26,981 bases of DNA from a virus, in the IMG/VR virus record IMGVR_UViG_3300045988_122866, positions 1-26,981 of that record; one strand, written 5' to 3'. The first letter of the stretch is position 1. Every line of letters starts with the position of its first letter. Position numbers and translations under genes: made by a program. Shown piece after piece: positions 10,823 through 26,981 of the stretch. Below the pieces are notes generated by a model that worked only from the letters and a program-made list of their open reading frames with translations, had not been told where the DNA came from and ran no database searches.

Positions 10823-10824
10823 TT

Positions 10825-10896
10825 TTATTTCCCCTTTTCACATTTAACGCATTGAGCGTGTGTTCCGCACTTTCCATCACAATAAGGACATTTCAT
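10825..10896 (-). CDS. Micro-ORF, 23 aa, five Cys (MKCPYCDGKCGTHAQCVKCEKGK), zinc-ribbon-like. Coordinates +/-1.
   Basis: SD AAAGGGGAA. Its ATG lies 1 nt after the TAA of the preceding 38-aa ORF. Confidence 0.4.
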   Translation of the reverse strand: MKCPYCDGKCGTHAQCVKCEKGK

Positions 10897-10897
10897 T

Positions 10898-11014
10898 TTA
10901 GTTCCCCTTTCTCAGACTCTCTTCAATTTCTTCCCATTCGCTTCTGAACAATTCAATGTTCGTATTGCCGATACACTCTAAAATAGCTTTAATCTGTTCC
11001 TCAGTAAATTTCAT
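10898..11014 (-). CDS. Micro-ORF, 38 aa (MKFTEEQIKAILECIGNTNIELFRSEWEEIEESLRKGN). Coordinates +/-1.
   Basis: SD AAAGGGGAA. Promoter with hairpin-embedded -35 at about 11046-11078. Confidence 0.4.
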   Translation of the reverse strand: MKFTEEQIKAILECIGNTNIELFRSEWEEIEESLRKGN

Positions 11015-11092
11015 TTTTTTTATTCCCCTTTCCTTTGATACATTAAGTATAGCAGAAAAAGGGCTTTTTGTCAAGCCCTTTTCTTATTTTTT

Positions 11093-11455
11093 TCAATTTT
11101 CTTTTCTAATGGAGTAGTAGCTCCGACTTCCCTTTTTGGTGTAGGTCAACTTTCTGTCAATCCAGCAAAGATGACCACAATACCACGAAATAGTGGCGCA
11201 AGAATATTCCTTGCCAGTCTCACGGTAAAGAATAAACTGAATTTCCGTAGGGCGCAGGGGCTTTTCCGCCTTTGAGAGAACATCGAGCATCATGTTTTTC
11301 ATCATGGTGTTGCGGATTTCCTGTTTCAGTTTCCGCGCTTCCTGGGCTTCTTCATACTGTGAGCAAGCTCTCTCCGCGTGGATTTCATCAATTCCGGTGA
11401 AAGTGCCATTGTCAAGGAATTTCTTCAAAAGGCTATAAGTTTCAAAGTTCATCAT
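11093..11455 (-). CDS. Hypothetical protein with a C-terminal winged-helix-like segment
   Basis: …LRPTEIQFILYRETGKEYSCATISWYCGHLCWIDRKLTYTKKGSRSYYSI looks like a wHTH. TGA stop. Confidence 0.45.
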   Translation of the reverse strand: MMNFETYSLLKKFLDNGTFTGIDEIHAERACSQYEEAQEARKLKQEIRNTMMKNMMLDVLSKAEKPLRPTEIQFILYRETGKEYSCATISWYCGHLCWIDRKLTYTKKGSRSYYSIRKEN

Positions 11456-11555
11456 GTCAGTATTCCCTTTCCTTTATTGTGCTTTTATTATAGCATCTGC
11501 TTTTGAATTTGTCAAGAAGTTTTTTGGAAAAAGAGGGAAAAATTTTCCCTCTTTT

Positions 11556-11825
11556 TTACCACTTTACAGTAAGAATACCGTTTGAGTAAGAAGTGGTATA
11601 GCCATAATTCCGCAAAAGATTTTTCAGAGCTTCTTTTACAGCTTCATCTTCAATGGCAACGAGACAGCGAGACAGATAATTTTCGCCCTTTTCCGCGCGG
11701 TCTTCAATATCTTTCATCAGATTTTCTTCGAGATAGGCACGGGCCGTAGCAGTATCTTCTGCGCGCTTGGCGTCGCGAGTTTCCTTGGCGATAGTTGCTA
11801 TTTCGTGAGCATATTTAATTTCCAT
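11556..11825 (-). CDS. Hypothetical protein (89 aa)
   Basis: Track ORF. Promoter with hairpin-embedded -35 at about 11845-11889. TAA stop. Confidence 0.5.
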   Translation of the reverse strand: MEIKYAHEIATIAKETRDAKRAEDTATARAYLEENLMKDIEDRAEKGENYLSRCLVAIEDEAVKEALKNLLRNYGYTTSYSNGILTVKW

Positions 11826-11903
11826 GGTGTTTCTCCCTTTCCTTTATTGTATCTTTATTGTAGCATATAGGGCTTGTTTTGTCAAGCCCTATATACATTT
11901 TTT

Positions 11904-12212
11904 TTAACAGTAAGCCAGATTCCCGCGCGCCCAGCCATATACGCTGATTTGATTGCACGCCTTGCCAATTTCAAGCGCCTGCTTCTTGGTCTGCACCCTC
12001 TTGGACTTGTCAACATAATAGATGCCGTTCGCAAGCCATACGCCGCAGTTTCCGCCGAAGTCCTTAACCGCATTGATAGCTTCGCGTGCGGTCTTACATT
12101 CAACGCCGTTGGTAGCGACTTGCCAGCCGGACTTGTAGTTGACTTTCTTGCCATATTTGAGAGTCAGGCCGTCATTTTCAGCGAGCTTGCGAATAGAACG
12201 AATGTTAATCAT
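11904..12212 (-). CDS. Hypothetical protein (about 102 aa, start MINIRSIRKL…)
   Basis: SD AAAGGGAT. First gene downstream of module E's minus promoter. TAA stop. Confidence 0.5.
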   Translation of the reverse strand: MINIRSIRKLAENDGLTLKYGKKVNYKSGWQVATNGVECKTAREAINAVKDFGGNCGVWLANGIYYVDKSKRVQTKKQALEIGKACNQISVYGWARGNLAYC

Positions 12213-12341
12213 GTTGTTATCCCTTTCCGGTTTGGTAGGTTTTCCTTCCCTTACTGTGATTATAGTATAGCACCGATTCGGGATTCTGTCTATTGACATT
12301 ATGCACAAACTTTCGCCATAAAAATTTGTGCAATCCGCCTA

Positions 12342-12470
12342 TTGACAAAAACTCGGCGCGCCAGGTCCGTTCGCGCGCCGGCCGATTATACTACAAAGTT
12401 TTGGGACTGTCAATAGACAAAATGACAAAAAAATTCGGCAGGATTTTGTGTATCCTGCCGAATTTTTTTT
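12342..12470 (-). promoter_or_regulatory. Leader module copy E. Hairpin 12355-12379 (ggcgcgcc…gcgcgcc). Minus promoter: -10 TATAAT about 12385-12390, -35 about 12408-12413. Terminator 12434-12462 (11-bp stem ttcggcaggat/atcctgccgaa plus a T8 run).
   Basis: Same core as copy D. The terminator directly follows the TAA of 12469..12663. Confidence 0.6.
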
Positions 12471-12663
12471 AATCTTTCCAACTCTCGATGACTTCACCGG
12501 TCATTGCGTCGATAATGTCAACCGAGAGGACGTTGTCCGCGTCCATAAACTTCTGACCGAGGGCGTATGCATTTTCCTGTCCCGCGACAGACACTTCATA
12601 GCGATAATGCCCCATGTCGCCCGCCTTGTAGTTGTAGTAGTTAACAGAAACAATAAATAACAT
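12469..12663 (-). CDS. Hypothetical small protein (start MLFIVSVNYY…)
   Basis: SD AAAGGGGAT. Promoter at about 12680-12720. TAA stop. Confidence 0.5.
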   Translation of the reverse strand: MLFIVSVNYYNYKAGDMGHYRYEVSVAGQENAYALGQKFMDADNVLSVDIIDAMTGEVIESWKD

Positions 12664-12748
12664 TTGGTTTATCCCCTTTCTTTTTATACTCTTATTATAC
12701 CATAGATTCAAGATTTGTCAAGGACTTTTTTCAAGAAAGAAGCGGGGC

Positions 12749-12940
12749 TTAGTAGCCCCGCTTTTCCAAACGGTCCAGGCGTCCAGCAAGGATTCTCGCA
12801 AGAACGGGCTTTGTCCATTTCATCAGACTATCAGCAGTGCTTTGGCAGTTTGCCCAAACCTCCCAAGTTTGGCCCTCGCGAATAATGTCAGCCTTGCGCA
12901 TCTTCATGAACTTCTCGTAATACATTTCGAAAGTATCCAT
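12749..12940 (-). CDS. Hypothetical small protein (63 aa)
   Basis: Track ORF. TAA stop inside hairpin gcggggct-tagt-agccccgc. Confidence 0.5.
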   Translation of the reverse strand: MDTFEMYYEKFMKMRKADIIREGQTWEVWANCQSTADSLMKWTKPVLARILAGRLDRLEKRGY

Positions 12941-13048
12941 AACTAACCTTTCTGGTGTTTGGGATTTTCCTTTCCCTTTCTGATATTATAATACCACAGA
13001 CCGCAAAGAATGTCAAGTGTTTTTTTTCAAAAAAAAAAGAAAAGTTTT

Positions 13049-13171
13049 TCAACTTCTCTTTCTACGGCGAATCGCTCTCTTTACGCGGTGCTCCACGTAT
13101 TCGATGAGCGCACCCGCGCCGATAACACCAACATAGATAGCGAGAAGAACAAGACCATCGTGAGTAGACAT
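13049..13171 (-). CDS. Micro-ORF, about 40 aa, with one TM helix and a basic tail (MSTHDGLVLLAIYVGVIGAGALIEYVEHRVKRAIRRRKRS). Coordinates +/-2.
   Basis: SD AAGAGGTAAATCAA. Promoter with hairpin-embedded -35 at about 13205-13239. The overlapping plus-strand track ORF 13010..13432 is an artefact. Confidence 0.35.
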   Translation of the reverse strand: MSTHDGLVLLAIYVGVIGAGALIEYVEHRVKRAIRRRKRS

Positions 13172-13251
13172 TTGATTTACCTCTTTCTTTCTTTTGATGT
13201 ATTCATTATACCAAACAAAGGGGCTTTTGTCAAGCCCCTTTTTTATTTTTT

Positions 13252-13530
13252 TTACAGTTCTTTTCCAACCTTAACAAATACGATTTTCTCCGGCAAGACT
13301 TCGATGCCCTTAATGCCCGCTTCATTGACTTCCTTGTTCGTGCAAGTCCACCCAAACTCATCTAATGCGTCCCATTCACCGTTCCCACTGGGAGTCCAAG
13401 TGTTGAATCCGTCATCAATCATCACGTCATAGCCCTTGCTGTAAGTCTCCATAATCTGTTCGATAGTCATTTGTTGTATTCCCCTTTCCTTTGATGATAC
13501 TATTATAGCATTTCGGGATAGGAATGTCAA
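13252..13530 (-). CDS. Hypothetical protein (92 aa)
   Basis: Track ORF. Promoter at about 13495-13530 (TGTCAAG … TATAAT). TAA stop. Confidence 0.5.
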   Translation of the reverse strand: MTFLSRNAIIVSSKERGIQQMTIEQIMETYSKGYDVMIDDGFNTWTPSGNGEWDALDEFGWTCTNKEVNEAGIKGIEVLPEKIVFVKVGKEL

Positions 13531-13653
13531 GTGGTTTTTGGCAAAAAATGGAAAAAATTTTGCTTTAACGCTTTACTGTGGTAAAGTTCGGGCTGGGACG
13601 CCCTACACGCGCACAACGGCGTAAGAGAAAGAGCGGGAAGCCCGCTCCCGCCC

Positions 13654-13863
13654 TTAATACATTTCGCTACTGGGTTCAACTGTGAAATACTCAACATTCC
13701 GCAAGTCGAGCTTGCCATAGGACTTGTCATTATACATTGTAGCACCTGTCGCAAGTAAGTCATTCATCTTACCTGCAATCTCCATAGCGCGCTGTTCCTC
13801 GAACGCCTGCTGGAAGAGATAGCCCTGACCGCCCTTAGTGTAATAAACAATGCCGTAAATCAT
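13654..13863 (-). CDS. Hypothetical protein (69 aa)
   Basis: SD AAAGGGGAA. Terminator gagcggg-aag-cccgctc follows the TAA. Overlapping track ORF 13527..13763 rejected. Confidence 0.5.
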   Translation of the reverse strand: MIYGIVYYTKGGQGYLFQQAFEEQRAMEIAGKMNDLLATGATMYNDKSYGKLDLRNVEYFTVEPSSEMY

Positions 13864-13993
13864 TTTTCATTCCCCTTTCCTTTTGTGATTATAGAATACC
13901 ACATTCTAACTGATTTGTCAAGACCTTTTTGCAAAAAATCTTTGTTAATTTTTTAACAATCTACGCCGTTAGGAAGGGAGCATTACTGCTCCC

Positions 13994-14326
13994 TTATTCT
14001 GCGTAAAGACTCATCAATTCATTTATCTTATCAATGGCTTCATCAATGTCATCGAGGTAGTTGTCTGCCAACATACTTGCATGGCTGGCTTCCTCGTAGT
14101 CATCATACGCGTCGCTGAGTTCCTGTGTGCCAAACTTGTCTGCCTGTTCGAGGGCGTCTACCTCGTGCCATGCCCTCGACATCTCACCACGCTTAACCTG
14201 ACAGTCGCGGAACGCCTGCTTGCTTTCGTTCATTAACCGTTCCTTTTCAGCTTTGAGAGCCTTGTAAAAATCCTGATTAGTCATTTGAGTATTCCCCTTT
14301 CTTATTGTATCTACATTGTAGCACAT
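13994..14326 (-). CDS. Hypothetical acidic protein (110 aa)
   Basis: Track ORF. Promoter at about 14340-14375. Terminator gggagca-ttac-tgctccc after the TAA. Confidence 0.5.
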   Translation of the reverse strand: MCYNVDTIRKGNTQMTNQDFYKALKAEKERLMNESKQAFRDCQVKRGEMSRAWHEVDALEQADKFGTQELSDAYDDYEEASHASMLADNYLDDIDEAIDKINELMSLYAE

Positions 14327-14413
14327 TACCGCGCATTTGTCAAGACCTTTTTTACTCTTCTCTGCTTGTTAATTTTTTAACAATCTTCGCCGATCCGCAA
14401 GAAAGAGAGAGAC

Positions 14414-14779
14414 TTAATAAGCCTCTCTCCATACCTTAATGATTGTATCATCTTCCACAGTATCAGTGTCATTGTCGTTAATCCACAAGAGCAAGAAGTC
14501 GTTGTCATCAATGTTGAGTGCTTCCACGTCCCACAGGTTGCCCTGCTCATCAATGAGCGTCAGGGTATCGCCCTCGCGTGCGTAGACCTCTGCGCCGACG
14601 AAACGAATACTTCCGCGTTCCGTGCCTGCACCGCACCAATTCTCAATGACCGAGAGGTCGTAGGACTGGGGCGCTTCCTCACAGGCTTCCGCGGTTGTGT
14701 GGTCGTGGAGTGGAGTGAAAAGAGATGCGCAGAGAATGATGCCAAGAGCGATGGTGATGATTTTGGAAACGTTTTTCAT
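14414..14779 (-). CDS. Secreted or lipoprotein-like protein with an N-terminal signal peptide
   Basis: MKNVSKIITIALGIILCASLF… then an acidic domain. Promoter at about 14795-14845 (TTGACA-17-TATACT). TAA stop. Confidence 0.5.
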   Translation of the reverse strand: MKNVSKIITIALGIILCASLFTPLHDHTTAEACEEAPQSYDLSVIENWCGAGTERGSIRFVGAEVYAREGDTLTLIDEQGNLWDVEALNIDDNDFLLLWINDNDTDTVEDDTIIKVWREAY

Positions 14780-14929
14780 TTTGATTTACCTCTTTCTTTT
14801 TGATGATACAAGTATAGCACATGGCTACTGGATTGTCAATAGTCATTTTGCACAAATGTGATGGCGTGGTTTCGGGTATTTTGACGATTGTGCATTATGA
14901 CGAAGTTTCGGCGAGAAATTTGTGCAAAC

Positions 14930-15000
14930 TGCTGATTTTTATAAAACTCGGCTCGCCACTACCGCCAGCGAGCCGAGCAACGTTTACCGGGGTGTTTATG
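14930..15000. promoter_or_regulatory. Degenerate leader-module copy F: aaactcgg plus a 10-bp-stem hairpin 14948-14977 (ctcggctcgc/gcgagccgag). No intact flanking promoter.
   Basis: Shares the aaatttgtgcaa…aaactcgg-hairpin context with copies D and E. The conserved -10 box is absent. Confidence 0.4.
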
Positions 15001-15147
15001 CGGGATGTGGTTGTGCGTTCTGCAAAAGAGCGAGAGTAAGGCTGGTATACTCTCAGAGAATAAACGAGTTAGAACCTTATGGATGGGGGTGTATTTCGGG
15101 AAAAAATTTTTTTTGATTTGTGTTTTTTCTTTTGCGTGGTCAAAACG

Positions 15148-15310
15148 CAATCTAAATCAATTTTCAATTTCAGAATACGGTTTAAAACAATAAATCAATT
15201 TTTAATTTCAGATTACGAAGAATAATTTAAATTTACTATAATTAATTTTCAATTTCAGAATACGATTTAAAACAACAAATCAATTTTCGATTTCAAATTA
15301 CGATTTCTTT
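15148..15310. repeat. Iteron-like tandem direct repeats, 3-4 units of about 30-40 bp with core AAATCAATTTTCAATTTCAGAATACGATTTAAAACAA, in an AT-rich stretch
   Basis: A 32-nt near-exact repeat (about 15160-15190 vs 15245-15275, one mismatch) plus two partial units. Located at the early/late boundary. Confidence 0.65.
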
Positions 15311-15394
15311 TTTCTACCCCTTTTGGGCTTCTCACCCCACATAAGAGTGTATAATCCAGAAGTAGCAGAATAAGTAGCTTTCTGCTGATACTTT

Positions 15395-15790
15395 TTAGCA
15401 ACTGCCTTCAAGGGACTGAGTGGTTTCCGCATTTAATTTTTCCTCCATATATTCGATTAATTTATCTTTATATTTACAACTATCAATATATCTATTAATA
15501 GTATTTATATCATATTTTTCCATTAAGTGTTCTAATACATATTTGTATTTATTCAACTGATATTCTTCTTGTTCTTCTTTGGTGCTTAATTGAGCCTTTT
15601 CCGCGTCTGATAAAGGTCTGTAAGTAATCGTTCTTGACCCATTATCCTTTTGCTCAATACGTATTGTTTTAAATAATTTCCAATCTCTTACAAAAGGGTC
15701 TTTATCTCTTGTAGTGTTAAAATATTCTTGTTCTAATCTAAATATTACCGCGTCTATCCCTCTTACTTCAAAAGGCTGGTTCCATCCCAT
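15395..15790 (-). CDS. Hypothetical protein (start MGWNQPFEV…)
   Basis: SD GGGAGGA 8 nt before the internal ATG. Overlaps the end of the upstream gene by about 20 nt. TAA stop. Confidence 0.5.
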   Translation of the reverse strand: MGWNQPFEVRGIDAVIFRLEQEYFNTTRDKDPFVRDWKLFKTIRIEQKDNGSRTITYRPLSDAEKAQLSTKEEQEEYQLNKYKYVLEHLMEKYDINTINRYIDSCKYKDKLIEYMEEKLNAETTQSLEGSC

Positions 15791-16160
15791 CTTCAATATC
15801 CTCCCATTCAAATGTTCCATCATCTAATTCATATACAAATGCTTGTTTATAAAATGATGAAACAATTCCATCATTTGTAATTCCTTTTGGACTATTTTTT
15901 ACATCATGAAAACAATTATAAACAATTAGTCCTTGCGTTTCATATCGTGAAAAATCTACTGCCCTTCCCTCAAAATCATAATTATAAAATATGTTTAATA
16001 ATAGCATACACTCATATTGTGCGATTGGCCATTTATTTAATTCTTTTTGCTAATTTGCCATTTTTTGGTATAATACCCAAAAGGCTTTTCTATATAACCA
16101 TAAAAAAAGGAGTGATGCTACTAACGCACAACTCAATAATACAATAAAAATAGTTTCCAT
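15768..16160 (-). CDS. Membrane-anchored protein with one in-frame TAG codon (at about 16050-16052) read through
   Basis: ATG at 16160 with SD AAGGAGTA. Promoter at about 16186-16220 (TTGACA-17-TATTAT). The frame is continuous with track ORF 15768..16007 across a single TAG. N-terminal TM helix IFIVLLSCALVASLLFLWLY. Confidence 0.5.
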
Positions 16161-16299
16161 AAATACTCCTTTTCTTTTTTCTTATAATAATAATAAAATA
16201 AAAATAAAGAAATGTCAAGTCATAGAGCGTGATTGGGCAAAAGTTATTTGTTTTGTTAAAAAAATTTTTAAATATAAAAAGAAAAAATTTTAAATGAAA

Positions 16300-16330
16300 C
16301 TTGACAAAAAAAATTTTTTCGAGTATAATA
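16300..16330 (+). promoter_or_regulatory. Consensus sigma70 promoter TTGACA-N17-TATAAT driving the plus-strand late-type operon
   Basis: cTTGACAaaaaaaattttttcgagTATAATat. GGAGGT SD then ATG at 16354. Coordinates +/-1. Confidence 0.75.
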
Positions 16331-16353
16331 TAAATATAGACTGGAGGTAAAAA

Positions 16354-17409
16354 ATGATAAAACTTGATTATTCTTTACAAACTCCAGAAGAAAGAAATCA
16401 ATTAGTCGAACAAATTTTGGCTGATAATCCAGATCCGCCTGAAAAGTATTTAGAAATTTTAGCAGACTATTTGGTTCTTTGTATGGAGAAACAAGAAAAA
16501 AAGGAGAAAAAATTATTAACTGATAATCGTATGGCTACAGTTAATAAGCGTGAGATTTCTTTTGAAGGTCTTGTTTCCCAACTCGAAAATGGCGAAGATG
16601 GAATTTATAATTTAATTACAGACAATAGAAATACAATATTTCAACCACATATTACAATTACAAAAAAAGATTTAGAAGAGATACCAAGTTTAAATTAGTT
16701 AAGAGAAGCCATTAATGTTTGGGAGGCTAAATTAAAAGTAACAGAAGGCAAAGATGCTTTTGTTATTAAAAAGGCTCTTATTGAAATGCGTAAAGATTAG
16801 TATGTTATGAAAAATGCTTATCGTCGTCCAATAGTGCCTACAAAATTAACTAGATCAAAGTCTTATATTCCATTAGATGATAAAACATTTATTTTTGATG
16901 ATGATGGTTTTCCCATTCCTGATGGAATTAGTTTATTAAGACCTGAAATATGTTCTGCGGTTTTATGTAATTATTCCCGATTAAAGCAAGATAGTTGGGG
17001 CGAATACGATAAAGACTTATGGTATTTAATGGAGGATTTTGATAAGCTTTGTGATAAAGCTTTAGCTAATTATCCTCTTTATGATAGAATCGTTGAATAT
17101 AAAATTGATGGTTTACAAAATATTGACATTCAAGAGAAAATACAAATGGAATTTGGCATTAAGCACAGTCTTGAATATATTTCAAGTTTATGGCGTAATA
17201 AAATTCCAAAATTAATTGCTTCGACTGCGGAAGATGAATATTTAGATAATTATTATTTAAATGTTGAAAAAGGTAAATATAAAAAATGTAGTCGTTGTGG
17301 TAAAATAAAATTAGCTCATAATAAATATTTTAGTAAAAATAAAACAAGTAAAGATGGCTTTTATAGTATTTGTAAAAGTTGTCGAAATTCTAAGGCCAAA
17401 AAATCTTAA
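16354..17409 (+). CDS. Hypothetical protein, 351 aa, with a C-terminal CxxC-N17-CxxC zinc ribbon. Contains 2 in-frame TAG codons (16696, 16795).
   Basis: Track ORFs 16354..16698 and 16807..17409 are in the same frame. The intervening segment has no TAA or TGA. TAA stop. Confidence 0.6.
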
Positions 17410-17458
17410 TATTGTCCTTTTGTTTATAATAAATAGTTGAAAGGAGAATATTTTATTT

Positions 17459-18646
17459 ATGGCTGAAACATATTATTGCGAAAAATGTAATCGCACAATG
17501 AATGGCACGGAATTCTATTCATCTAATAATTTAGAAAAATATCCTAATGATGGTAAATTTCCTGTGTGCAAAAAATGTATGACAATGCACGTCGATAATT
17601 GGAATCCAGATACTTATTTATGGATTTTGCAAGAAGCAGATGTTCCTTATGTCCCAGATGAATGGAATAAATTAATGGAAAAATATGGACGCGATCCGCA
17701 GTCTATGACCGGTATGACAATTCTTGGACGTTATTTGTCAAAAATGAAACTCAAATAGTTTAAAGATTATCGTTGGAAAGATACAGAATTTTTATAGTAG
17801 ATGGCGAATAATAAATTAGAACAAACTATGAAGCGTCAAGGATATGATGCTCAATAGATTGCAACCGCTATTGAAAAAAGTTCTATTGCTATTCCAGAAG
17901 GAGAACTAAAAGAGCCGGTTTATGCTCCACCACCTAATGCCCCTACGGAAGATTATTTCGCACAATAGAGGGGTGAAGTGGAACAAGAATTAGACTTAAC
18001 TGATGAAGACCGCACTTATTTAAGACTTAAATGGGGCAAAACTTATAAACCTGAAGAATGGGTTAAGCTTGAATAGCTGTATGAAGAAATGATGGCTTCT
18101 TATGATATTCAAGGTGCCGGACATAAAGATACGCTAAAATTAATATGTAAGACATCTTTAAAGGCAAATCAATTGATCGATATTGGTGATATTGAAGGTT
18201 TCCAAAAGATGAGCAAAGTATACGATAGCTTAATGAAGTCTGGTAAATTTACTGCTGCTCAAAACAAAGCAGAATCAGGTGAATTTGTTGATTCAATTGG
18301 TGAATTAATTGAATTGTGTGAAAAAGAAGGATATATTGAAAGATATTATGTTGAATAGCCACATGATAAAGTGGATTTAACTATTCAAGATATGCAACGT
18401 TATACTCGCACTCTTATCGAAGATGAAACTAATATTAGCACAATGGTAGAAAAGGCTTTACGCGAAAATGCTAAAGAAGATGAAGAGAAAGCAAAGAACG
18501 CGGAAAGCGATATCGTTGATGATGCTGATTTAAGTATTGAAGAACTTGAAAAAACTATTAAAGATAGTGATTATGCGGATTTTGAGGAATTTAAAGAATA
18601 GGAATCTGCGCAAGATAATGAGTTCTTATAGGGTTTGGATAAATAA
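17459..18646 (+). CDS. Hypothetical protein, 395 aa, with an N-terminal CxxC-N23-CxxC zinc ribbon and an acidic C-terminus. Contains 9 in-frame TAG codons including a tandem TAG-TAG. Candidate small terminase by position only.
   Basis: Track ORFs 17459.., 18089.. and 18371.. share one frame. A codon-by-codon walk finds no TAA or TGA until TAA 18644-18646, which overlaps the TerL ATG (TAATG). SD AAAGGAGAA. Confidence 0.55.
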
Positions 18647-20385
18647 TGGCATTACAAGATTTACTGTAGTTAAGTGATAGCCGTAGAAAAATAGGTCTAT
18701 CACCGGAGCGAGTAGAAGCGGTAATGCCTACTATCCGCAAATACGTTGCCTTTTGGAGAGAATATCCTGATTTATTTGTAGATTTTATGGTGCGAGGAAG
18801 ACGCACTGAAATAAAAGATGGAGAATTTAATTTTTATTTTTATTAGAGAGTATTTCTCCGTTCTGTTATGCGTTATTAGTATGTTTACGCGGTTTTCCCT
18901 CGTGCTTATTCTAAATCATTCTTGTCTGTTATGGCATTAATGATTAGATGTATTTTATATCCTGGTGCGCACTTGTTCGTTACTTCTGGAGGTAAAGAGC
19001 AAGGTGCTAGTATTCTTCATGATAAAGTTCAAGAAATATGTGAACTTATTCCAAGCTTTAATCGAGAAATTGATTGGAGTCGAGGAAAAACTCTTGAAGG
19101 AAAAGATAAAGTTAGATATGTGTTTAAAAATGGTTCAGTTTTGGATAACCTCGCAGCTCGTGAAAGCACTCGTGGTCAGCGTCGTCATGGTGGATTAATG
19201 GAAGAATGTGTCGGTATTGATGATGCTATTCTTCGTGAAGTTATTATTCCTGTTATGGCAATTTCTCGTAGAGCTAAAGATGGCACTACCAATGAACAAG
19301 AGCCATTAAACAAATCACAGATCTATATTACTACTGCTGGTTATAAGGGCACATTCCCTTATGATAGACTTATTGGTTTCTTAGTTCGTATGGTGACTTA
19401 GCCTGATCGTTGTATGGTATTGGGCGGAACATGGCGAACTCCTGTTGCAGTAGGATTACAAAGTAAAACATTTATTACTGACCAAAAGAATGAAGGAACT
19501 TATAATGAAGCTTCATTCGAACGTGAATATGAATCTAAGTGGTCAGGAACTGTTGAGGATGCTTTCTTTAATGGAGAGCATTTTGATAGGAATAGAAAAC
19601 TATTATAGCCTGAATATGAAGCTTCTGGACGTGCGGGCGCACAAGCTTATTATGTGCTTTCTGTAGATGTAGGTCGTAAAGGGTGTGATTCAGTAGTTTG
19701 TGTATTTAAAGTAACACCACAAGCTCAAGGCCCAGCTATTAAATCATTAGTAAATATGTATACTATGTCAGATGACCATTTTGAAGATTAGGCTATTAAA
19801 TTAAAGAAATTATTTTATAAATATAAAGCTAAAACTTTAGTTATAGATGGTAATGGTTTAGGTATTGGACTTTTAGATTATATGGTAAAATCTCAAAATG
19901 ATGAAGATGGTGAATTTTTACCTGATTTTGGTGTTGAGAATGATGATGATGGATATTATAAAAAATATCGCACACCAAATACTCAATTTGATGCTATGTA
20001 TGTTATTAAAGCAAATGCTCCAATAAATACTGAATGTCATGCTAATGCTCAGACTCAATTGCAAGCGGGTAAAGTAAAATTCTTAATAGATGAGAGAACA
20101 GCTAAAGAAAAATTATTAGCTACTCAAAAAGGTTCAAAAATGACTTCTGAACAAAGGGCAGATTATTTAAAACCATTTACTTTAACCTCCATATTAAAAG
20201 AAGAAATGATGAATTTACGCGAAGAAAATGAAGGTATTAATATTATCCTAAAACAGGCAAATCGTGGAATTCGTAAAGATAAATTTTCGGCTTTTGAATA
20301 TGGATTATATTATTTAAAACTTGAAGAAGATAAAAAGAAAAAACGTAAAAAGTTTAATGCGGCTGATTGGTGCTTTTTAAATTAA
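18646..20385 (+). CDS. terL: Terminase large subunit, 579 aa, with 6 in-frame TAG codons
   Basis: Track ORFs 18922.., 19414.. and 19882.. are in one frame, and the frame extends upstream to ATG 18646 across 3 more TAGs. Walker-A-like PRAYSKS after FYFY(Q)RVF. C-terminal nuclease-like segments YVLSVDVGRKGCDSVV and LVIDGNGLGIGLLDYM. Confidence 0.8.
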
Positions 20386-20397
20386 GGAGGGTGGAAA

Positions 20398-20754
20398 ATG
20401 CGTGCTTCAAGAGGAGAAATTAAAATTGAAGAAATCTTAGAAGAAGCAGGACTACCTTTTAAAATGGAATATATCTTTCCAGATTTAAAAAGCCCAAGCG
20501 GGCGTCCGCTTCGTTTTGATTTTGTTATATTTGATGATGATGGAAAAATTGATTTCATTATTGAGTATTAGGGAAAATAGCATTATGAAGCCAGTTCTAA
20601 ATTTGGCGGAAAACGCGGTTTATACCAGTAGCAATATAATGATAATCAAAAAAGACGTTTTTGCGCTTTACATGATTTTAGATTAATAGAGATTCCATAT
20701 ACCGACGAAAACCTTATTTCTTATGATTATATAATGAAATTAGCAGGTTATTAA
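20398..20754 (+). CDS. Small PD-(D/E)xK (Vsr/DUF559-like) nuclease-fold protein, about 118 aa, with 3 in-frame TAGs
   Basis: SD AAGGAGGG. FDFVIFDDDGKIDFIIEY(TAG)GK(TAG)HY fits the D…E-x-x-G-x-Q-H signature if TAG is Gln. TAA stop. Confidence 0.5.
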
Positions 20755-20767
20755 AGGAGGTGGAACT

Positions 20768-22417
20768 TTGGATACGCAAGATCGTAATGAATAGATTCAT
20801 GCTAAAGGTTTTGATATTTATAATGGTCGTTATGAATATAATTATAATGATACCATGGACTATGCCAATAGAAAAATAAAAGTTGGCACAAAAACTTTAG
20901 ATGACGCTATTTTAAAACTTGGTGATTATAGTAAGATTAGATATCCAGGTCAAAATCGTATTATCACGAAACCTGATGTGCTTCGCGCGCTCGCAGAAAG
21001 AGATCTAAATGCTTTGCGATACATCTCTAATTTTTATTATGATATAAGTGGTGTATATCAACGAGTTTGTAATTATGTTGCTTTTTTATATCGTTATGAT
21101 TGGTATATTGCAGCCGAAACTTATGATGACAATGTAAAAGAAGAAAAAGTTTTAAAAGATTTTTATAAAATGTTGAATTATTTTGATAATAGCTATATTA
21201 AAAAGGTTTGCGGAGATATTGCTTTACAAGTTGTTAAAAATGGATGCTATTATGGTTATATAGTTCCTTCAGAGAAAAATCTAATTTTACAAGAATTACC
21301 AGTTAGATATTGTAGAACACGTTATAGTGTAAATAATACCCCAGTTGTTGAATTTGATATGCGATTTTTTGATACTTTTAGAGATATGAATTATCGTTTA
21401 AAAGTATTAAAATTATTCCCAGAAGAATTTGCTAAAGGTTATGTTCTATATAAACAAGGAAAACTTGCTTTGGAAGAGGCAGTTGGATGCTAGCATACTG
21501 GTAGTTGGTATGTTCTTGAACCAGAAAATTGTGTTAAATTTAATATTAATAATAGTGATGTTCCTATTTTTGTAAATTCGATTCCTACTATTATGGATTT
21601 AGATGCAGCGCAAGATCTTGACCGCAAGAAACAAATGTAGAAGTTGCTTAAAATTTTAGTCCAAAAGCTCCCAATGGATAAAAACGGTGATTTGATATTT
21701 GATGTTGATGAAGCCAGAGATATCCATAATAATGCCGTTTAGATGTTATAGAGGGCTATTGGAGTAGATGTTTTAACTACATTTACCGATGTAGATTCTA
21801 TTGATATGTCTGATAAGAATACTACTACAACGACAGATGATTTAGCTAAAGTTGAACGTAGCGTTTATAATTCGTTAGGTATTTCATAGAATTTATTTAA
21901 TACTGATGGTAATATGGCTTTAGAAAAATCAGTGTTAAATGATGAATCTACAATAAGAAGTTTAATTTTATAGTTTAATATATTCTTTAATAGAATTATT
22001 GAAAAAAAGAGTAGTAATAAGAAATATAATTTTAGATTTTATTTATTAGAAACTACTCAGAATAATTATCAAACACTTTCTAAAATGTATAAAGAACAAG
22101 CGCAAATGGGACAATCAAAGCTATTGTCTTAGATTGCTCTTGGACATTCGTAGAGTTTTATTCTTAATGCAGCTCATTTTGAAAATGAGATTTTACATTT
22201 AAGTGAAATTATGATTCCTCCTCTTATGAGTTCTACTATGGGTAGTGAAGATATTTTGGGTTTAAAAGGTTCATCATCTAATAATAAAACTCAAAATAAT
22301 TCAGGAAGTTCAGGCTCTGGAACTGCTAAAGCTTCTAATGGCGAGGCAGGACGTCCGGAAAAACCTGATGATTAGAAAAGTGAAAAAACTATTCAAAATA
22401 AAGAAGCAATGAAATAA
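20768..22417 (+). CDS. Putative portal protein, about 549 aa, with at least 9 in-frame TAG codons
   Basis: SD AAAGGAGGT then a TTG start (alternative ATG at 20855). The frame is continuous with track ORF 20855..21493 through to TAA 22415-22417, with no TAA or TGA in 1.6 kb. Size and position after TerL fit a portal. Confidence 0.55.
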
Positions 22418-22426
22418 GGAGGATTT

Positions 22427-24004
22427 ATGAAACATACAAGTATTAAATTAAATACACCTTGTGAGTTTATAAATATAACTCCTGTAAATCCTTTAATTTC
22501 TAAATGCCAAATTAAGGTTTGTTATGTAGATGATAAACCTAATCGTAACAAAAGTGTAATTACTAAAGATGTAGCGACTGAGATGGCTAATAGCCTTCCT
22601 GGTAGTCCTATTGTTGGCTTTTTTAATGAGAATGCTGAAGATTTTGAAGAACATAATAGGATAATTGAATTATCTAACGGCGAATTTAGAATGAGAGATG
22701 ATACTCGTCCTTATGGTTTTGTTGATCTTGGAGCTAAAGTTTGGTTTTAGAAATTTTTGGATGATGGTGTTGCCGAACGTGAGTATTTAATGACTGAAGG
22801 TTATTTGTGGACTGGTTAGTATCCTGAATGTAAACGTGTAATTGATAAAGGGAATAATCATTCTATGGAGCTTGATGAAAAAACATTAAATGCTACGTGG
22901 GCAAAAGATAGCAATGGAAAACCTTAGTTTTTTATTATAAATAAGGCAATTATTTCTAAACTTTGTATTTTGGGAGAAGAAAATGAACCTTGTTTCGAAG
23001 GTTCCCAAATCAATGTGAATTTTTCATTCGATGATGGTTTTAAGAACACTTTGTTCTCCATGATGAATGAACTTAAAGAATTTATGAAAGAAGGAGGAGC
23101 CAAAGTGTTTACACAATACGCTGTTAATATTGGCGACAATTTGTGGAATTCTCTTTATTCTTATATTGAGAATAAGTATCCTGTCGAACCAAAGAATTAT
23201 TGTTCTGTTTATCGCATTGAAGGTGTTTGCGAAGATGGTGAACAAAAGTTTGCTGTTTTGAAGAATAAGCAGGATGAAAAATACTATCGTATGGATTTTT
23301 CTCTTGAAGCAGAGAATTTCGTTCCTTCTGATACTTTGATTGAAGTAACTGATTATGCTCCTGCGGCTGAGCCTCAGTTTGCTCTTAATGCTGTAGAAGA
23401 ATTTGAAAATGAGTATGCTTCAAAAAAGAAAGCAGAAGAGGACAAAAATAATAAATCAAATAATCCTGACGGTGAAAATAAATCAGAGGGCAATGATAAT
23501 AAAAAGAACCCTGATAATGGAGAGCCCTCTAATAAGTCTGATAAAGGCGACAACGGTGAGAATGATGATGATAAAAAGAAAAAGAAAAATTATTCTCTTG
23601 AGGACGTTGTTGAATATACTGAACTTAAAGCTCAGTATGATGAATTACAGACTAAATTCGCAGCTCTTGAAACTGAAAATAATAGCTTGAAAGAGCAAAT
23701 TGCTCCACTTGCTGAATTTAAAAATGCTGCTGAGAAGAAAGATAAAGAAGATATGATTGCTAAATTCTATATGCTTTCTGATGAAGATAAAGCTGATGTT
23801 GTTGAAAATATTGATAAATATTCTCTTGATGATATTGAAGCTAAATTATCTGTTATTTGTGTTCGCAACAAGGTGAGTTTCGACCTTGACGAAAATAATA
23901 AGCCCAATGGTGCTACTACTTTTAATTTGAACAATAATGGTTCAGAAGACGATGATATGCCCGCTTGGGTGAAGGCGGCTTTTGCTACCGCCAACAAAAA
24001 TTAA
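22427..24004 (+). CDS. Scaffold-like protein, 525 aa: N-terminal globular domain (3 TAGs at 22748, 22817, 22925), acidic low-complexity linker, C-terminal coiled coil. Possibly a protease-scaffold fusion.
   Basis: SD AAGGAGG. Track ORFs 22427..22750 and 22970..24004 are in the same frame, verified codon by codon. Contains a KE/D-rich segment and heptad-like repeats. Confidence 0.5.
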
Positions 24005-24021
24005 TAAGGAGGACATACTAA

Positions 24022-24939
24022 ATGTTTAAAGACTTTTTGAATAAGAATCTTCCTATTAAGTCTCAGGCAAAGTATGTTGAGTTTGGTTACGGTCAGGTCG
24101 AGCCTAATCACCTTTCCGCGCAAAGAAATGCTCAAATCTATGCTCAACTTCCTGCCAATAAAGACATTGAGATTCTTGAAAACGGTCAGTTTGTAAAGTA
24201 TGACTATGCTGCTAATGGTAATGGTATCGGCGAAGTCAACTTTACTGGCGAAGGTGAATGGATGCTCGTTTATAATGAGATTAAGCTTTATCGTGATCAT
24301 TATGATGGCAGTAAGCAGTGGGACTGCGAATTTGCTATGATTAAAGATGACTATCAGGCTCGTGTTTATAGTCCTTATGATTGGGAGCATACCGAGGTTG
24401 AATATGGTGGTCGTTTCTGGAATGGTGTTGATGAAAAGGGTCAAACCTATAAGTTAATCAATCAGACCGTTTCCGCAGATCAAGGTTTAAAGACTGTTAC
24501 TATTGCTGGTCGTGTTTATGATGTTGATGAAACCGGCAAGTTTACTTATGATGGTAATGAATATACTCTTGATAGTAATCATCAGGTTGCTAATGTTCCT
24601 GTAAAGTATTACTATGATAAGCTTCTTACTGATGTTCCTGATATGTATGAAATGAATTGGACCAATGATCCATATCATAAGTTAGGTATTTATCATGAGA
24701 AGTTCATGGAATCTGGCACTTCTATGGTTCCTCGTGTATTTAAGACCATGATTGGTGATCTTTATACTACTAATATGATTAATGAAGAGACTCTTGCTGT
24801 TGGAGATAAGCTTTCTCCTTCTGCTGCTACAAAGGGTATTCTTAGCAAAACTGGCGACGATTCAATGACCTGGCAGGTTGTTAAGGTTTATACTATGCCT
24901 GATGGTCAAAAGGGCGTCAAGGTAATGCGTATTAAGTAA
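24022..24939 (+). CDS. Major structural protein (capsid, decoration or second coat protein), 305 aa, TAG-free
   Basis: Strong SD AAGGAGG. Codon usage shifts to GCT/GGT/CGT/CTT, typical of highly expressed genes. Lies between the scaffold-like gene and the capsid candidate. Confidence 0.45.
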   Translation: MFKDFLNKNLPIKSQAKYVEFGYGQVEPNHLSAQRNAQIYAQLPANKDIEILENGQFVKYDYAANGNGIGEVNFTGEGEWMLVYNEIKLYRDHYDGSKQWDCEFAMIKDDYQARVYSPYDWEHTEVEYGGRFWNGVDEKGQTYKLINQTVSADQGLKTVTIAGRVYDVDETGKFTYDGNEYTLDSNHQVANVPVKYYYDKLLTDVPDMYEMNWTNDPYHKLGIYHEKFMESGTSMVPRVFKTMIGDLYTTNMINEETLAVGDKLSPSAATKGILSKTGDDSMTWQVVKVYTMPDGQKGVKVMRIK

Positions 24940-24956
24940 GAAAGGAGAAAAGGATA

Positions 24957-26063
24957 ATGTTAGATAAAAATAATTTAATTGCTCTTATGAAGCAAGTTGC
25001 TAAGGCTGATCCTTCTGCTCCTGTTGCTTATAGTTATGAGGGAAAAAATCTTAGTTATGAAGCCTTAAATGAAACTCTTCGTAATGAAATGAATGAGTTG
25101 GCTGGTACTTACGCTCTTTATCGTGAAAATAAGAATCTTATTTTCTCTATGATTGAGCAGACTCTTGATGAGGTTCTTCCTAAGAAAGTTATTCAGCAAT
25201 ATGATCAGTTTGCTGAGGTTAAAACTTTCGCTCAGGGTGATAAGCCTATTTTCCGTCGTCCTCTTAATAATCGTGCTCGTGCTAAGCAGTTTGTAACTCG
25301 CGTTGGTCTTGCTGGTATTTATGAAGTCTTCAAGCTCGGACCTAAAGAGAATGAAGCCTTTGAGGTACGTACTAGCGCTATCGGCGGAGCTGCTCAGATT
25401 GGCTTCGAAGAGTTCCTTGATGGTCGTGTTGATTTCGGTGAAGTAACCAAGATCATCATGGATGGTATGGATGAACTTATTTATAAAGAAGTTGCTGCTG
25501 CTCTTAGATCTTCTATCAATCAGCTTCCTCCTGCTAACCGCGTTGCGGCTGCCGGATTTGATGAAGCTGCTATGGATCGTTTGATCACTATTGCTTCTGC
25601 TTATGGTACTCCTACTATTTATTGTACTTATGAGTTCGCTGTTAAGATGATTCCTCATGAGGCTTGGAGATATACTGAAGCTATGAAGAACGAGCTTTGG
25701 AATAATGGTCGTCTTGCTACTTACAAGGGCACTAAGGTTATTATTCTTGAGCAGGGCTTTGAAGATGAAACAAATACTCGTAAGGTTATTGATCCTGGTT
25801 ATGCTTGGGTTATTCCTACGGGCGCTGATGGTAAGCCTGTAAAGATTGCTTTCGAAGGTGGCACTATTGTTGACGAGTTCAACAATTATGATCGTTCTCG
25901 TGAGATTCAGGTTTACAAGAAGGTTGGCGTAGTTTGTATGCTTGCTAATAACATCTGTGCTTATGTTGATACTTCACTTCTCGGTCAGATGTATACTTGG
26001 AATTATGATGGAGTCACCGGTAAGGTTGTCACTTATGATGGCCGTCTTGATGGCAAGATCTAA
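24957..26063 (+). CDS. Putative major capsid protein, 368 aa, TAG-free
   Basis: SD AAGGAGAAAAGG. High-expression codon bias. Followed by the strongest terminator in the late region. Size fits an HK97-fold coat protein. Confidence 0.5.
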   Translation: MLDKNNLIALMKQVAKADPSAPVAYSYEGKNLSYEALNETLRNEMNELAGTYALYRENKNLIFSMIEQTLDEVLPKKVIQQYDQFAEVKTFAQGDKPIFRRPLNNRARAKQFVTRVGLAGIYEVFKLGPKENEAFEVRTSAIGGAAQIGFEEFLDGRVDFGEVTKIIMDGMDELIYKEVAAALRSSINQLPPANRVAAAGFDEAAMDRLITIASAYGTPTIYCTYEFAVKMIPHEAWRYTEAMKNELWNNGRLATYKGTKVIILEQGFEDETNTRKVIDPGYAWVIPTGADGKPVKIAFEGGTIVDEFNNYDRSREIQVYKKVGVVCMLANNICAYVDTSLLGQMYTWNYDGVTGKVVTYDGRLDGKI

Positions 26064-26082
26064 TTTAATATAAATTATTCCA

Positions 26083-26125
26083 TGGGGAGAAGGGATTAAA
26101 CTCCCTCTCCCCATATTTTTGTTTT
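26083..26125 (+). terminator. Intrinsic terminator (tggggagaaggga…tccctctcccca plus a T-run) after the capsid gene
   Basis: A 12-13-bp stem followed by tatttttgtttt. Confidence 0.7.
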
Positions 26126-26149
26126 ATGAGTAAAAGGAGAAATTGAATA

Positions 26150-26743
26150 ATGATTAATAATGAAGATATTTATAATGTAAAAAATAGAAGCACTAGTGTA
26201 GTTGTTTATACTATTCCTGATACTAATTTGCGTCGTGAATTTGCGCCTGGTGAAACTAAGCGTATTCCATTTGGTGAGCTAGAGAAATTAACTTATCAGG
26301 CAGGCGGTCGCGAATTAATTGCTAATTTTTTACAAATTTTAGAGCCAGAAGTAACTCATACTCTTAATGTTCATACTGAACCTGAATATAATATGTCAGA
26401 GCAACAAGTTGCTGATTTAATTCTTAATGGCTCATTAGATGCTTTCTTAGATGCTCTTGATTTTGCTCCTATTGGAATTATTGACTTAATCAAGAATTTA
26501 TCTGTTAGCCTTCCTATTACTGATATTAATAAGCGTAGAGCTTTGAAGGAAAAAACTGGGTTTGATGTTGATAAAGCTATTGCTAATGATATCGCTAGTA
26601 AAGAAGAAGATACTATTGTAGAGAAAGAACCCGCTGCTAAGCGCCGTGTAGTAAGAGAAGAGCCTACTACTCAAGGTCGTCGCACAAGCGGTTCTGGATA
26701 TAAAGTAATTAATAAAACCGAGGAAACTTCCTCCAAGAAATAA
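26150..26743 (+). CDS. Hypothetical structural-module protein, 197 aa, TAG-free
   Basis: SD AAAGGAGAA. TAA stop. Confidence 0.5.
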   Translation: MINNEDIYNVKNRSTSVVVYTIPDTNLRREFAPGETKRIPFGELEKLTYQAGGRELIANFLQILEPEVTHTLNVHTEPEYNMSEQQVADLILNGSLDAFLDALDFAPIGIIDLIKNLSVSLPITDINKRRALKEKTGFDVDKAIANDIASKEEDTIVEKEPAAKRRVVREEPTTQGRRTSGSGYKVINKTEETSSKK

Positions 26744-26762
26744 TTTATAGGAGGGCGATTAA

Positions 26763-26981
26763 GTGGGAACATTATTCTCAGCTGTTTATAATCGCTTTCT
26801 AAACAAGGTTACTGATGACATGTATCTGGAGTTGACTCCTGAAGATACTCTAAGAGATTTATAGAATCTTATAATAGATGCTATTCCTGGATTTGAATTT
26901 CCACGAAAAAATCTTTTAGATTATAATTTAGATGTTGCTACTATTAATGAATCTGATGCTATGCCAGATGATTTTATTGTA
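26763..26981 (+). CDS. Hypothetical protein, 5' part only (runs off the window), GTG start, with one in-frame TAG
   Basis: SD TAGGAGGGCG. The frame stays open to the window end apart from one TAG. Confidence 0.4.

What the first reader, a model, noticed from the sequence alone, without database searches (positions are those of the whole stretch)
22970..26743. TAG codons are unevenly distributed: abundant structural genes avoid them, low-copy morphogenesis genes carry them
From 22970 to 26743 (scaffold C-terminus, the 305-aa structural protein, the capsid candidate and the 197-aa protein) there is not a single in-frame TAG. These genes also show a distinct high-expression codon bias (GCT/GGT/CGT/CTT). 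TerL, portal, the zinc-ribbon proteins and the small nuclease carry 3-9 TAGs each. This fits suppression-limited translation. TAG read-through would act as a timing or dosage gate on packaging genes while coat proteins escape it.
Basis: partly seen in the sequence, partly recalled or inferred. Interest (0 to 1): 0.65.

Follow-up and report, generated by a model that had tools for sequence, protein, structure and literature searches.

The report
Abundant virion genes avoid recoded TAG
In this gut phage that reads the stop codon TAG as glutamine, the genes for the most abundant particle proteins are almost free of TAG while their low-copy neighbours are full of it, which is best explained by ordinary selection for efficient translation rather than by a special regulatory gate.

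Summary
Read with TAG as Gln, window 16354-26981 is a late operon. It runs sigma-like protein, Zn-ribbon protein, TerL, homing nuclease, portal, protease-scaffold, p305, major capsid protein (MCP), p197. No in-frame TAG lies between 22928 and 26861: 0 of 39 Gln codons there, against 33 of 96 upstream (scan permutation p=5e-5).

The pattern holds across the clade. In 24 recoded lineages, TAG makes up 1.5-2% of Gln codons in MCP, p305 and the major tail protein. It makes up 24-53% in low-copy genes. A codon-bias score learnt only in standard-code relatives predicts TAG share (rho -0.76).

In low-copy genes TAG sits close to the level expected from mutation bias. TAG/(TAG+CAG) is 0.80 and TTG/(TTG+CTG) is 0.84. 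TAG is spread evenly along these genes.

The left edge of the block falls inside one ORF. A conserved internal GGAGGA-N6-GTG (start 23105) marks a probable nested scaffold gene behind a T4 gp21-like protease domain.

Best reading: expression-dependent purifying selection against a costly suppressed codon. The "gate" idea is neither needed nor excluded. This is a new member of a known kind (phAss-1-like code-15 phages).

The parts
16354..17409 (+). Sigma-factor-like protein with a C-terminal zinc ribbon, 351 aa, 2 in-frame TAG
   Evidence: phrog_5767 'sigma factor' E=9e-55; TAG count
17459..18646 (+). Zinc-ribbon protein of unknown function, 395 aa, 9 in-frame TAG
   Evidence: phrog_3314 E=1e-58; TAG count
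18646..20385 (+). Large terminase subunit, 579 aa, 6 in-frame TAG
   Evidence: phrog_2 terminase; 45-60% identity to TerL of phAss-1, Enterococcus and Geobacillus phages
20398..20754 (+). Small homing-endonuclease-like nuclease, 118 aa, 3 in-frame TAG
   Evidence: phrog_9084 and phrog_559; TAG count
20768..22417 (+). Portal protein, 549 aa, 10 in-frame TAG
   Evidence: phrog_2739 portal E=3e-82; TAG count
22427..24004 (+). Prohead protease-scaffold fusion ORF, 525 aa. Its 3 TAG (22748, 22817, 22925) all lie in the N-terminal protease part.
23090..23107 (+). Conserved in-frame internal Shine-Dalgarno plus start, GGAGGA GCCAAA GTG. The start codon is 23105-23107 (codon 227).
   Evidence: GGAGG[AG]-N6-9-[AG]TG is present in 28 of 28 lineages although synonymous sites are saturated. 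The start is always GTG or ATG, although GTG is a rare Val codon.
23105..24004 (+). Inferred nested scaffold ORF, 299 aa, 0 TAG
   Evidence: Across recoded lineages TAG share is 31% upstream and 6% downstream of the internal start (Fisher p=1e-11). The codon-bias score is higher downstream in 28 of 28 lineages.
24022..24939 (+). p305, unknown protein between scaffold and capsid genes, 0 TAG, strong high-expression codon bias
   Evidence: No TAG in 20 of 24 recoded lineages. Fold not resolved (pLDDT 46).
24957..26063 (+). Major capsid protein, 368 aa, 0 TAG, CAG 10 and CAA 2
   Evidence: Homologs in Bacillus phages are annotated major capsid protein. Weak match to the HK97-fold capsid model NF042927. 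No TAG in 20 of 24 lineages.
26150..26743 (+). p197, unknown head-module protein, 0 TAG here, intermediate in the clade (8% of Gln codons)
26763..26981 (+). Start of the next gene (runs off the window). TAG resumes at 26862.
   Evidence: The ortholog in L009 (190 aa, phrog_3853) has 3 TAG.
22928..26861 (+). The full run without any in-frame TAG

Best explanation
The window carries the late (head) operon of a phAss-1-like, SPbeta/Tsamsa-type phage of gut Clostridia that reads TAG as glutamine.

Once TAG is readable, AT-biased C-to-T mutation turns CAG into TAG. TAG accumulates to near its mutational equilibrium in weakly expressed late genes.

Each TAG must be decoded by a suppressor tRNA(CUA). 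That tRNA is inferred to compete with host release factor 1. Every TAG therefore costs some truncated product and ribosome time, and the cost scales with how much of the protein is made.

Purifying selection removes TAG from the genes made in the largest amounts: the major capsid protein, p305, the internally initiated scaffold and the major tail protein. The same genes are also purged of other poor codons.

Shown here: the depletion, its conservation, its link to codon bias, and near-neutral TAG levels elsewhere.
Inferred: the release-factor competition, the actual expression levels, and the internal scaffold start.
For: 1. Recoding is real.
- Reading TAG through restores full-length TerL, portal and the other late genes.
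- Gln is the commonest residue opposite TAG in standard-code relatives, 27% of aligned residues.
- All nine late genes end in TAA.

2. The depletion is significant in the window.

3. The depletion recurs in 24 recoded lineages that share less than 90% portal identity.
- TAG share of Gln codons is 1.5% in MCP, 1.5% in p305 and 2.1% in the major tail protein.
- It is 24-53% in ten low-copy genes.

4. An independent predictor works. A codon-bias score trained on MCP against TerL plus portal, in standard-code relatives only, predicts TAG share of the other gene families in recoded relatives. Spearman rho is -0.76, p=0.003.

5. An internal control agrees. In high-bias genes TAG/(TAG+CAG)=0.03 against TTG/(TTG+CTG)=0.40 (p=2e-38). 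In low-bias genes the values are 0.80 and 0.84.

6. Polymorphism fits purifying selection. Among 18 near-identical genomes, TAG at Gln sites in MCP and p305 appears only as CAG-to-TAG variants in 1-2 genomes. Most TAG sites in other genes are fixed or at high frequency.

7. There is a contrast inside one gene. TAG share is 31% before and 6% after a conserved internal SD plus GTG/ATG in the protease-scaffold ORF.

8. tRNA(CUA) genes sit in the tRNA array of 5 of 6 recoded sister lineages examined and of 0 of 4 standard-code ones. phAss-1 also has them.
Against: - No expression data. 'Abundant' rests on function and codon bias.
- p305 has no assigned function, and its structure model failed.
- No suppressor tRNA lies in the window, and none was recovered for the window's own lineage.
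- The depletion is not absolute. Four of 24 lineages have 1-2 TAG in MCP.
- In crAss-like code-15 phages a tail tube family was reported as preferentially recoded (bioRxiv 10.1101/2021.08.26.457843). The rule may therefore be clade-specific.
- The lineages are related, so the 24 are not fully independent samples.
Confidence: 0.7

Rival explanations
1. Regulatory gate. TAG codons are kept by selection in packaging and other low-copy late genes, so that these genes are translated only once suppressor tRNA is plentiful, or only at a reduced dose. Coat proteins escape this control.
For: - Early-region genes on the minus strand (1-15200) are readable in the standard code.
- tRNA(CUA) genes track recoding across sister lineages.
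- The published model proposes such gating for late and lysis genes.
- TAGs confined to the protease part of the protease-scaffold ORF would lower the ratio of fusion protein to scaffold.
Against: - The TAG level in low-copy genes is close to the mutation-bias proxy (0.80 vs 0.84).
- TerL and portal are not enriched relative to other low-copy genes.
- TAG positions are uniform along genes, 35-37% in every fifth.
- Individual TAG sites are poorly conserved between lineages, with many columns that each hold few TAGs.
- A gate that leaves the capsid, scaffold and tail tube ungated would not stop premature particle protein synthesis.
Confidence: 0.15
2. Selection against poisonous fragments. TAG is purged from multimer-forming shell proteins because truncated subunits would poison assembly, not because of translation cost.
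For: The TAG-free genes all encode self-assembling polymers: capsid, scaffold and tail tube.
Against: - The same genes show strong bias at many other amino acids (ATA 0.00, AAG 0.63, CGT 0.66). Fragment toxicity does not explain that.
- The same bias exists in standard-code relatives.
- Portal, also an oligomer that nucleates assembly, carries 10 TAG.
Confidence: 0.1
3. Mosaic origin. The capsid block was recently acquired from a standard-code phage and has not yet had time to accumulate TAG.
For: - The block has higher GC (0.38-0.41 against about 0.30-0.34).
- MCP is 76-100% identical across lineages whose portals are only 54-75% identical.
Against: - Fourfold-degenerate sites of MCP between the window and other lineages are 52-75% identical. 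That is near the saturation level expected from its own codon bias. TerL gives 44-54%. The divergence is therefore old.
- The depletion recurs in 20 of 24 lineages and also in the distant major tail protein gene.
- The depletion starts inside an ORF, at an internal start codon.
Confidence: 0.03
4. Chance clustering of TAG codons.
For: None beyond the small number of genes in the window.
Against: Permutation p=5e-5 in the window, with replication across the clade.
Confidence: 0.01

Closest known systems
phAss-1-like phages ('Caudoviricetes code 15 clade'; Babkin et al. 2023, PMC10607447)
   Same: - Gut phages of 130-200 kb with TAG read as Gln and tRNA-Sup(CTA) genes.
- TerL, portal and tape measure interrupted by TAG.
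- Predicted Clostridia hosts.
- Window proteins match phAss-1: TerL 45%, MCP 50%, protease domain 43% identity.
- The paper lists TerL and tape measure, but not MCP, as recoded. phAss-1 MCP has 0 TAG among 15 Gln codons here.
   Different: - No nucleotide-level match to any deposited phage, so this is a different genus-level lineage.
- The paper does not analyse which genes avoid TAG or why.
Gene-family-specific use and avoidance of recoded stops (Borges et al., bioRxiv 10.1101/2021.08.26.457843)
   Same: - Recoded codons are unevenly spread.
- Early genes and integrases avoid them, and late genes carry them.
- The authors propose that selection enriches or depletes them by gene family.
   Different: - That work stresses enrichment in lysis genes as regulation, and it reports a tail tube family as preferentially recoded in crAss-like phages.
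- Here the tail tube, capsid and scaffold are the depleted genes.
- Here the level in other genes matches mutation bias.
Single-genome note that a crAss-like amber-reassigned phage has no TAG in its MCP (bioRxiv 10.64898/2026.08.21.746148)
   Same: The same observation for one capsid gene, with the same suggested reason of translational pressure.
   Different: It is an anecdote in an unrelated order (Crassvirales). It has no statistics, no other abundant proteins and no comparison across lineages.
Nested protease/scaffold genes (lambda C/Nu3, herpesvirus UL26/UL26.5; cited from my own knowledge)
   Same: - An N-terminal assemblin/gp21-fold protease.
- A C-terminal coiled-coil region.
- A conserved in-frame internal start that would give a more abundant scaffold.
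   Different: - The internal product has not been observed.
- Here the evidence is codon-level conservation plus the step change in TAG share and codon bias.

Membership tests
Genetic code 15 (TAG read as Gln) phage | In-frame TAG inside conserved essential genes, which become full length when TAG is read through | tested here: met
   TerL, portal and four other late ORFs carry 33 TAG and match full-length families
Genetic code 15 (TAG read as Gln) phage | TAG aligns with Gln in standard-code homologs | tested here: met
   Gln is the top residue opposite TAG columns (519 of about 1900 residues, 27%). Next come Glu and Lys, which are single-base neighbours of TAG.
Genetic code 15 (TAG read as Gln) phage | TAG not used as a terminator in recoded genes | tested here: met
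   All nine late genes in the window end in TAA. A standard-code sister lineage does end its portal gene in TAG.
Genetic code 15 (TAG read as Gln) phage | Phage-encoded suppressor tRNA with CUA anticodon | tested here: inconclusive
   None in the window or within 10 kb of the capsid gene in relatives. Present in the tRNA array of 5 of 6 recoded sister lineages and 0 of 4 standard-code ones. Not recovered for the window's own lineage.
Proposed genus Phassvirus (phAss-1, BK046881, BK025033) | High nucleotide identity (80-86%) and shared synteny with phAss-1 | tested here: not met
   No megablast match in the phage collection. Protein identity is only 42-50%. It belongs to the wider clade, not this genus.
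Expression-linked translational selection on codon usage | The same genes are biased at many amino acids, not only at Gln | tested here: met
   ATA, AGA, GGA and TTA are avoided, and CTT, CGT, GCT, AAG and TTC are preferred, in TAG-free genes
Expression-linked translational selection on codon usage | The bias is a property of the gene family, independent of recoding | tested here: met
   A score learnt in standard-code relatives ranks MCP, p305 and the major tail protein highest. It predicts TAG share with rho -0.76.
Expression-linked translational selection on codon usage | Biased genes are the most highly expressed | not testable with these tools
   No transcript or protein abundance data. 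Inferred from the roles of capsid, scaffold and tail tube.
Nested protease-scaffold gene (lambda C/Nu3 type) | N-terminal capsid maturation protease fold | tested here: met
Nested protease-scaffold gene (lambda C/Nu3 type) | Conserved in-frame internal ribosome-binding site and start codon | tested here: met
   GGAGG[AG]-N6-9-GTG/ATG in 28 of 28 lineages
Nested protease-scaffold gene (lambda C/Nu3 type) | A separate, more abundant C-terminal protein is actually made | not testable with these tools
   Needs mass spectrometry or N-terminal sequencing
Regulatory recoding (TAG as a gate on specific late genes) | TAG enriched in the gated genes beyond compositional expectation, or placed to block translation early | tested here: not met
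   0.80 against the 0.84 proxy. TerL and portal are mid-range. Positions along genes are uniform. Lysis genes lie outside the window and were not tested.

The most novel reading that the evidence does not exclude
TAG density is actively tuned as a translational attenuator that sets virion protein stoichiometry. One example would be the ratio of protease-scaffold fusion to nested scaffold made from one ORF. On this reading, recoding in this clade is a selected dosage-control system rather than a tolerated mutational by-product.
Probability: 0.12. Interest if true: 0.7.

Novelty: new member of a known kind. Interest (0 to 1): 0.42.

Why it matters
Whether stop-codon recoding in phages is adaptive regulation or a tolerated drift product is an open question. 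This clade is very abundant in metagenomes (more than 8000 p305 clusters). It also contains recoded and standard-code sister lineages side by side. That makes it a clean natural test.

- TAG behaves as a nearly neutral codon in low-copy genes and as a clearly costly one in high-copy genes. This argues that suppression is imperfect and that much of the TAG pattern is a balance of mutation and selection.
- TAG share can serve as a sequence-only proxy for expression level in recoded phages. Here it pointed to a hidden nested scaffold gene and flags p305 as a probable major virion component.
- Abundant structural genes survive standard-code gene calling intact while their neighbours fragment. This biases marker-gene surveys.

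Tried and rejected
- **+4 base after TAG.** I looked for a release-factor-weakening context. C is enriched after TAG (0.20 against 0.12 after CAA/CAG). The same enrichment follows all G-ending codons: AAG+GAG 0.20, CAG 0.22, TTG 0.25. It is a dinucleotide effect, not evidence about suppression.
- **p305 structure.** The model from a 20-sequence alignment was too poor to search (pLDDT 46). Sequence and profile searches of the PDB, Pfam and NCBIfam gave nothing useful.
- **In-frame TAG in a 'standard-code' portal (L027 cluster).** It is simply that gene's real stop codon.
- **Left arm (1-15190) as host DNA or a chimera.** Rejected. Relatives L004 and L011 share it across the junction, and its ORFs hit phage families.
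- **Recent horizontal transfer of the capsid block.** Rejected on synonymous-site saturation.
Full report
**What the window is**

Base composition splits the window in two. Positions 1 to about 15200 have GC near 0.42. They hold densely packed small minus-strand ORFs that are readable in the standard code, have GGAAAGGGG-type ribosome-binding sites, and end in TAA or TGA. Some of them hit phage families: exonuclease-like, deoxyribonucleotidase/kinase-like and antitoxin-like.

From 16354 onward GC is near 0.30. Here the + strand resolves into long ORFs only if TAG is read through. Family searches identify the following:
- a sigma-factor-like protein
- a zinc-ribbon protein
- TerL
- a homing-endonuclease-like nuclease
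- portal
- a 525-aa 'scaffold' family protein
- a 305-aa protein (p305)
- a 368-aa protein
- a 197-aa protein (p197)

Homologs of the 368-aa protein in Bacillus phages are annotated major capsid protein. It also gives a weak match to an HK97-fold capsid model.

The closest named relative is phage phAss-1, with TerL 45% and MCP 50% identity. phAss-1 belongs to a described group of gut phages that use genetic code 15 and carry tRNA-Sup(CTA) genes. Their predicted hosts are Clostridia (PMC10607447). No deposited phage matches the window at nucleotide level. ARAGORN finds no tRNA in the window.

**Check of the observation**

In-frame TAG counts are 2, 9, 6, 3 and 10 for the five genes from the sigma-like protein to portal. 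The protease-scaffold ORF has 3, all in its first 167 codons. p305, MCP and p197 have none. The next ORF has a TAG at 26862. The TAG-free run is therefore 22928-26861.

Inside it, 0 of 39 Gln codons are TAG, against 33 of 96 upstream (Fisher p=3e-6). A permutation that allows for picking the longest run gives p=5e-5. The run still contains 25 TAG trinucleotides (all frames, + strand), none in the coding frame. The absence is therefore a coding-frame property.

The codon-bias claim holds when the five TAG-free genes are pooled (three in the window, two read from relative L009). They avoid ATA, AGA, GGA and TTA. They prefer CTT, CGT, GCT, AAG and TTC. They use CAG for 53% of Gln codons, against 8% in TAG-bearing genes.

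**Extension with relatives**

A capsid-protein scan of IMG/VR returned 80 loci from contigs of up to about 200 kb (most 90-200 kb). Their MCP is 76-100% identical to the window's. Several are 97-98% identical to the window in DNA from about 15190 to the end.

L009 shows what lies downstream of the window:
- five genes with 3-9 TAG each
- a 332-aa gene with none
- a 368-aa gene with 15 TAG
- a 177-aa gene with none
- a tape-measure gene with at least 17 TAG

Homologs of the 332-aa protein are annotated major tail protein or tail tube protein. The pattern therefore repeats outside the window.

Clustering at 90% portal identity gives 29 lineages. Twenty-four are recoded, four use the standard code, and one is phAss-1.

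Pooled over the 24 recoded lineages, the TAG share of Gln codons is:

| Gene | TAG share |
|---|---|
| MCP | 1.5% |
| p305 | 1.5% |
| major tail protein | 2.1% |
| p197 | 8% |
| 177-aa protein | 16% |
| protease-scaffold ORF | 19% |
| remaining ten genes | 24-53% |

Columns holding TAG align mostly with Gln in the standard-code relatives. This confirms the reassignment.

**Why the depletion reflects selection tied to expression**

First, I trained a codon-bias score on MCP against TerL plus portal, in the standard-code relatives only and leaving out Gln codons. It ranks p305 and the major tail protein next to MCP. It predicts the TAG share of the remaining families in recoded relatives (Spearman -0.76, p=0.003).

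Second, the Leu pair TTG/CTG serves as a proxy for first-position C-to-T bias.
- In low-bias genes of recoded lineages, TAG/(TAG+CAG)=0.80 and TTG/(TTG+CTG)=0.84.
- In MCP, p305 and the tail protein the values are 0.03 and 0.40 (p=2e-38).

TAG is therefore roughly where mutation would put it in low-copy genes, with a small but significant shortfall (p=0.006). It is strongly purged in high-copy genes.

Third, among 18 near-identical genomes, TAG at Gln sites in MCP and p305 appears only as CAG-to-TAG variants carried by 1-2 genomes. Most TAG sites in other genes are fixed or common. This is what weakly deleterious variants look like.

Fourth, fourfold-degenerate sites of MCP between lineages are close to saturation. 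The TAG-free state has therefore been held for a long time and is not a recent import.

**The left edge of the block**

Across recoded lineages the TAG share inside the 525-aa ORF falls from about 30% to about 5% near codon 250. Just upstream lies GGA GGA nnn nnn GTG (window 23090-23107).

This motif is conserved at the codon level in 28 of 28 lineages. The start is always GTG or ATG, although GTG is a rare Val codon here. Upstream of it the TAG share is 31%, downstream 6% (Fisher p=1e-11). The codon-bias score is higher downstream in all 28 lineages.

From general knowledge, lambda C/Nu3 and herpesvirus UL26/UL26.5 are in-frame nested pairs of this type, and the internal product is the abundant scaffold. 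I infer the same here. No protein data exist.

**The gate idea**

Nothing found here requires it.
- TerL (32%) and portal (33%) are mid-range among low-copy genes.
- The TAG share is 35-37% in every fifth of gene length.
- An apparent excess of C after TAG is a general property of G-ending codons.

The idea is not excluded. Lysis genes, the focus of the published model, lie outside the window.

tRNA(CUA) genes are present in the tRNA array of 5 of 6 recoded sister lineages and of none of 4 standard-code ones. This links recoding to a phage-borne suppressor. I could not recover that region for the window's own lineage.

**Comparison with the literature held**

- Borges et al. describe gene-family enrichment and depletion of recoded stops. 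They stress lysis genes, and they report a crAss tail tube family as enriched. The word 'capsid' does not occur in the preprint text.
- Babkin et al. list TerL and tape measure, but not MCP, as recoded, without comment.
- A 2026 preprint notes one crAss-like phage whose MCP lacks TAG and suggests translational pressure.

The kind of phenomenon is therefore known and expected from codon-usage theory. New here are the quantified, clade-wide pattern across capsid, scaffold, p305 and tail tube, the near-neutral level elsewhere, and the nested-gene inference.

**Verdict**

This is a new member of a known kind, of moderate interest.

Noticed in passing
window 1-15190 vs 15190-26981: There is a sharp GC step, about 0.42 on the left and about 0.30 on the right. 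The left arm is a swappable module. Near-identical relatives L004 and L011 share it across the junction. L002, L009, L013 and L016 carry unrelated sequence there.
   Followed up: partly
window 15153-15306: A 38-bp unit (TAAATCAATTTTCAATTTCAGAATACGATTTAAAACAA) is repeated 3.8 times in tandem. It lies in the AT-rich gap between the divergent early and late gene blocks, exactly where relatives lose similarity. Copy number varies between relatives. It could be an origin, iterons or a recombination hotspot.
   Followed up: no
L009 16309-17415 (downstream of the window in a 98% identical relative): A 368-aa gene has 15 TAG among 22 Gln codons, the highest density seen. It sits next to the TAG-free major tail protein gene. 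No ortholog was found in any other lineage cluster. It is probably an insertion that came from another recoded phage.
   Followed up: no
window 20398-20754: A small homing-endonuclease-like gene is wedged between TerL and portal and carries 3 TAG. Borges et al. noted a recoded intron endonuclease in another clade.
   Followed up: no
loci L257, L280, L283, L298, L311 vs L285, L320, L323, L324: In sister lineages one or two tRNA(CUA) genes sit just upstream of tRNA-Leu(UAA) in a tRNA array, as in phAss-1. Standard-code sisters keep the Leu-Gly-Lys-Cys array but lack the suppressor. The suppressor sequences differ widely between lineages. L265, the tRNA-array region of recoded lineage L023, showed none in the stretch held.
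   Followed up: partly
L027 cluster, portal gene end: Standard-code sister lineages end their portal gene in TAG. Recoded lineages have a sense codon or TAA at that position. This is a direct view of the stop-codon change that accompanies recoding.
   Followed up: yes
window 22427-23104 (protease domain): Database homologs carry a precomputed Pfam domain PF27290. It is absent from the local Pfam copy, so the Pfam scan of the window protein missed it.
   Followed up: no
window 24022-24939 (p305): This is a very abundant family in metagenomes, with at least 8000 clusters at 90% identity. One cluster is labelled as from a Clostridiales MAG. The N-terminal 134 residues are nearly invariant yet have no predicted structure and no family match.
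   Followed up: partly
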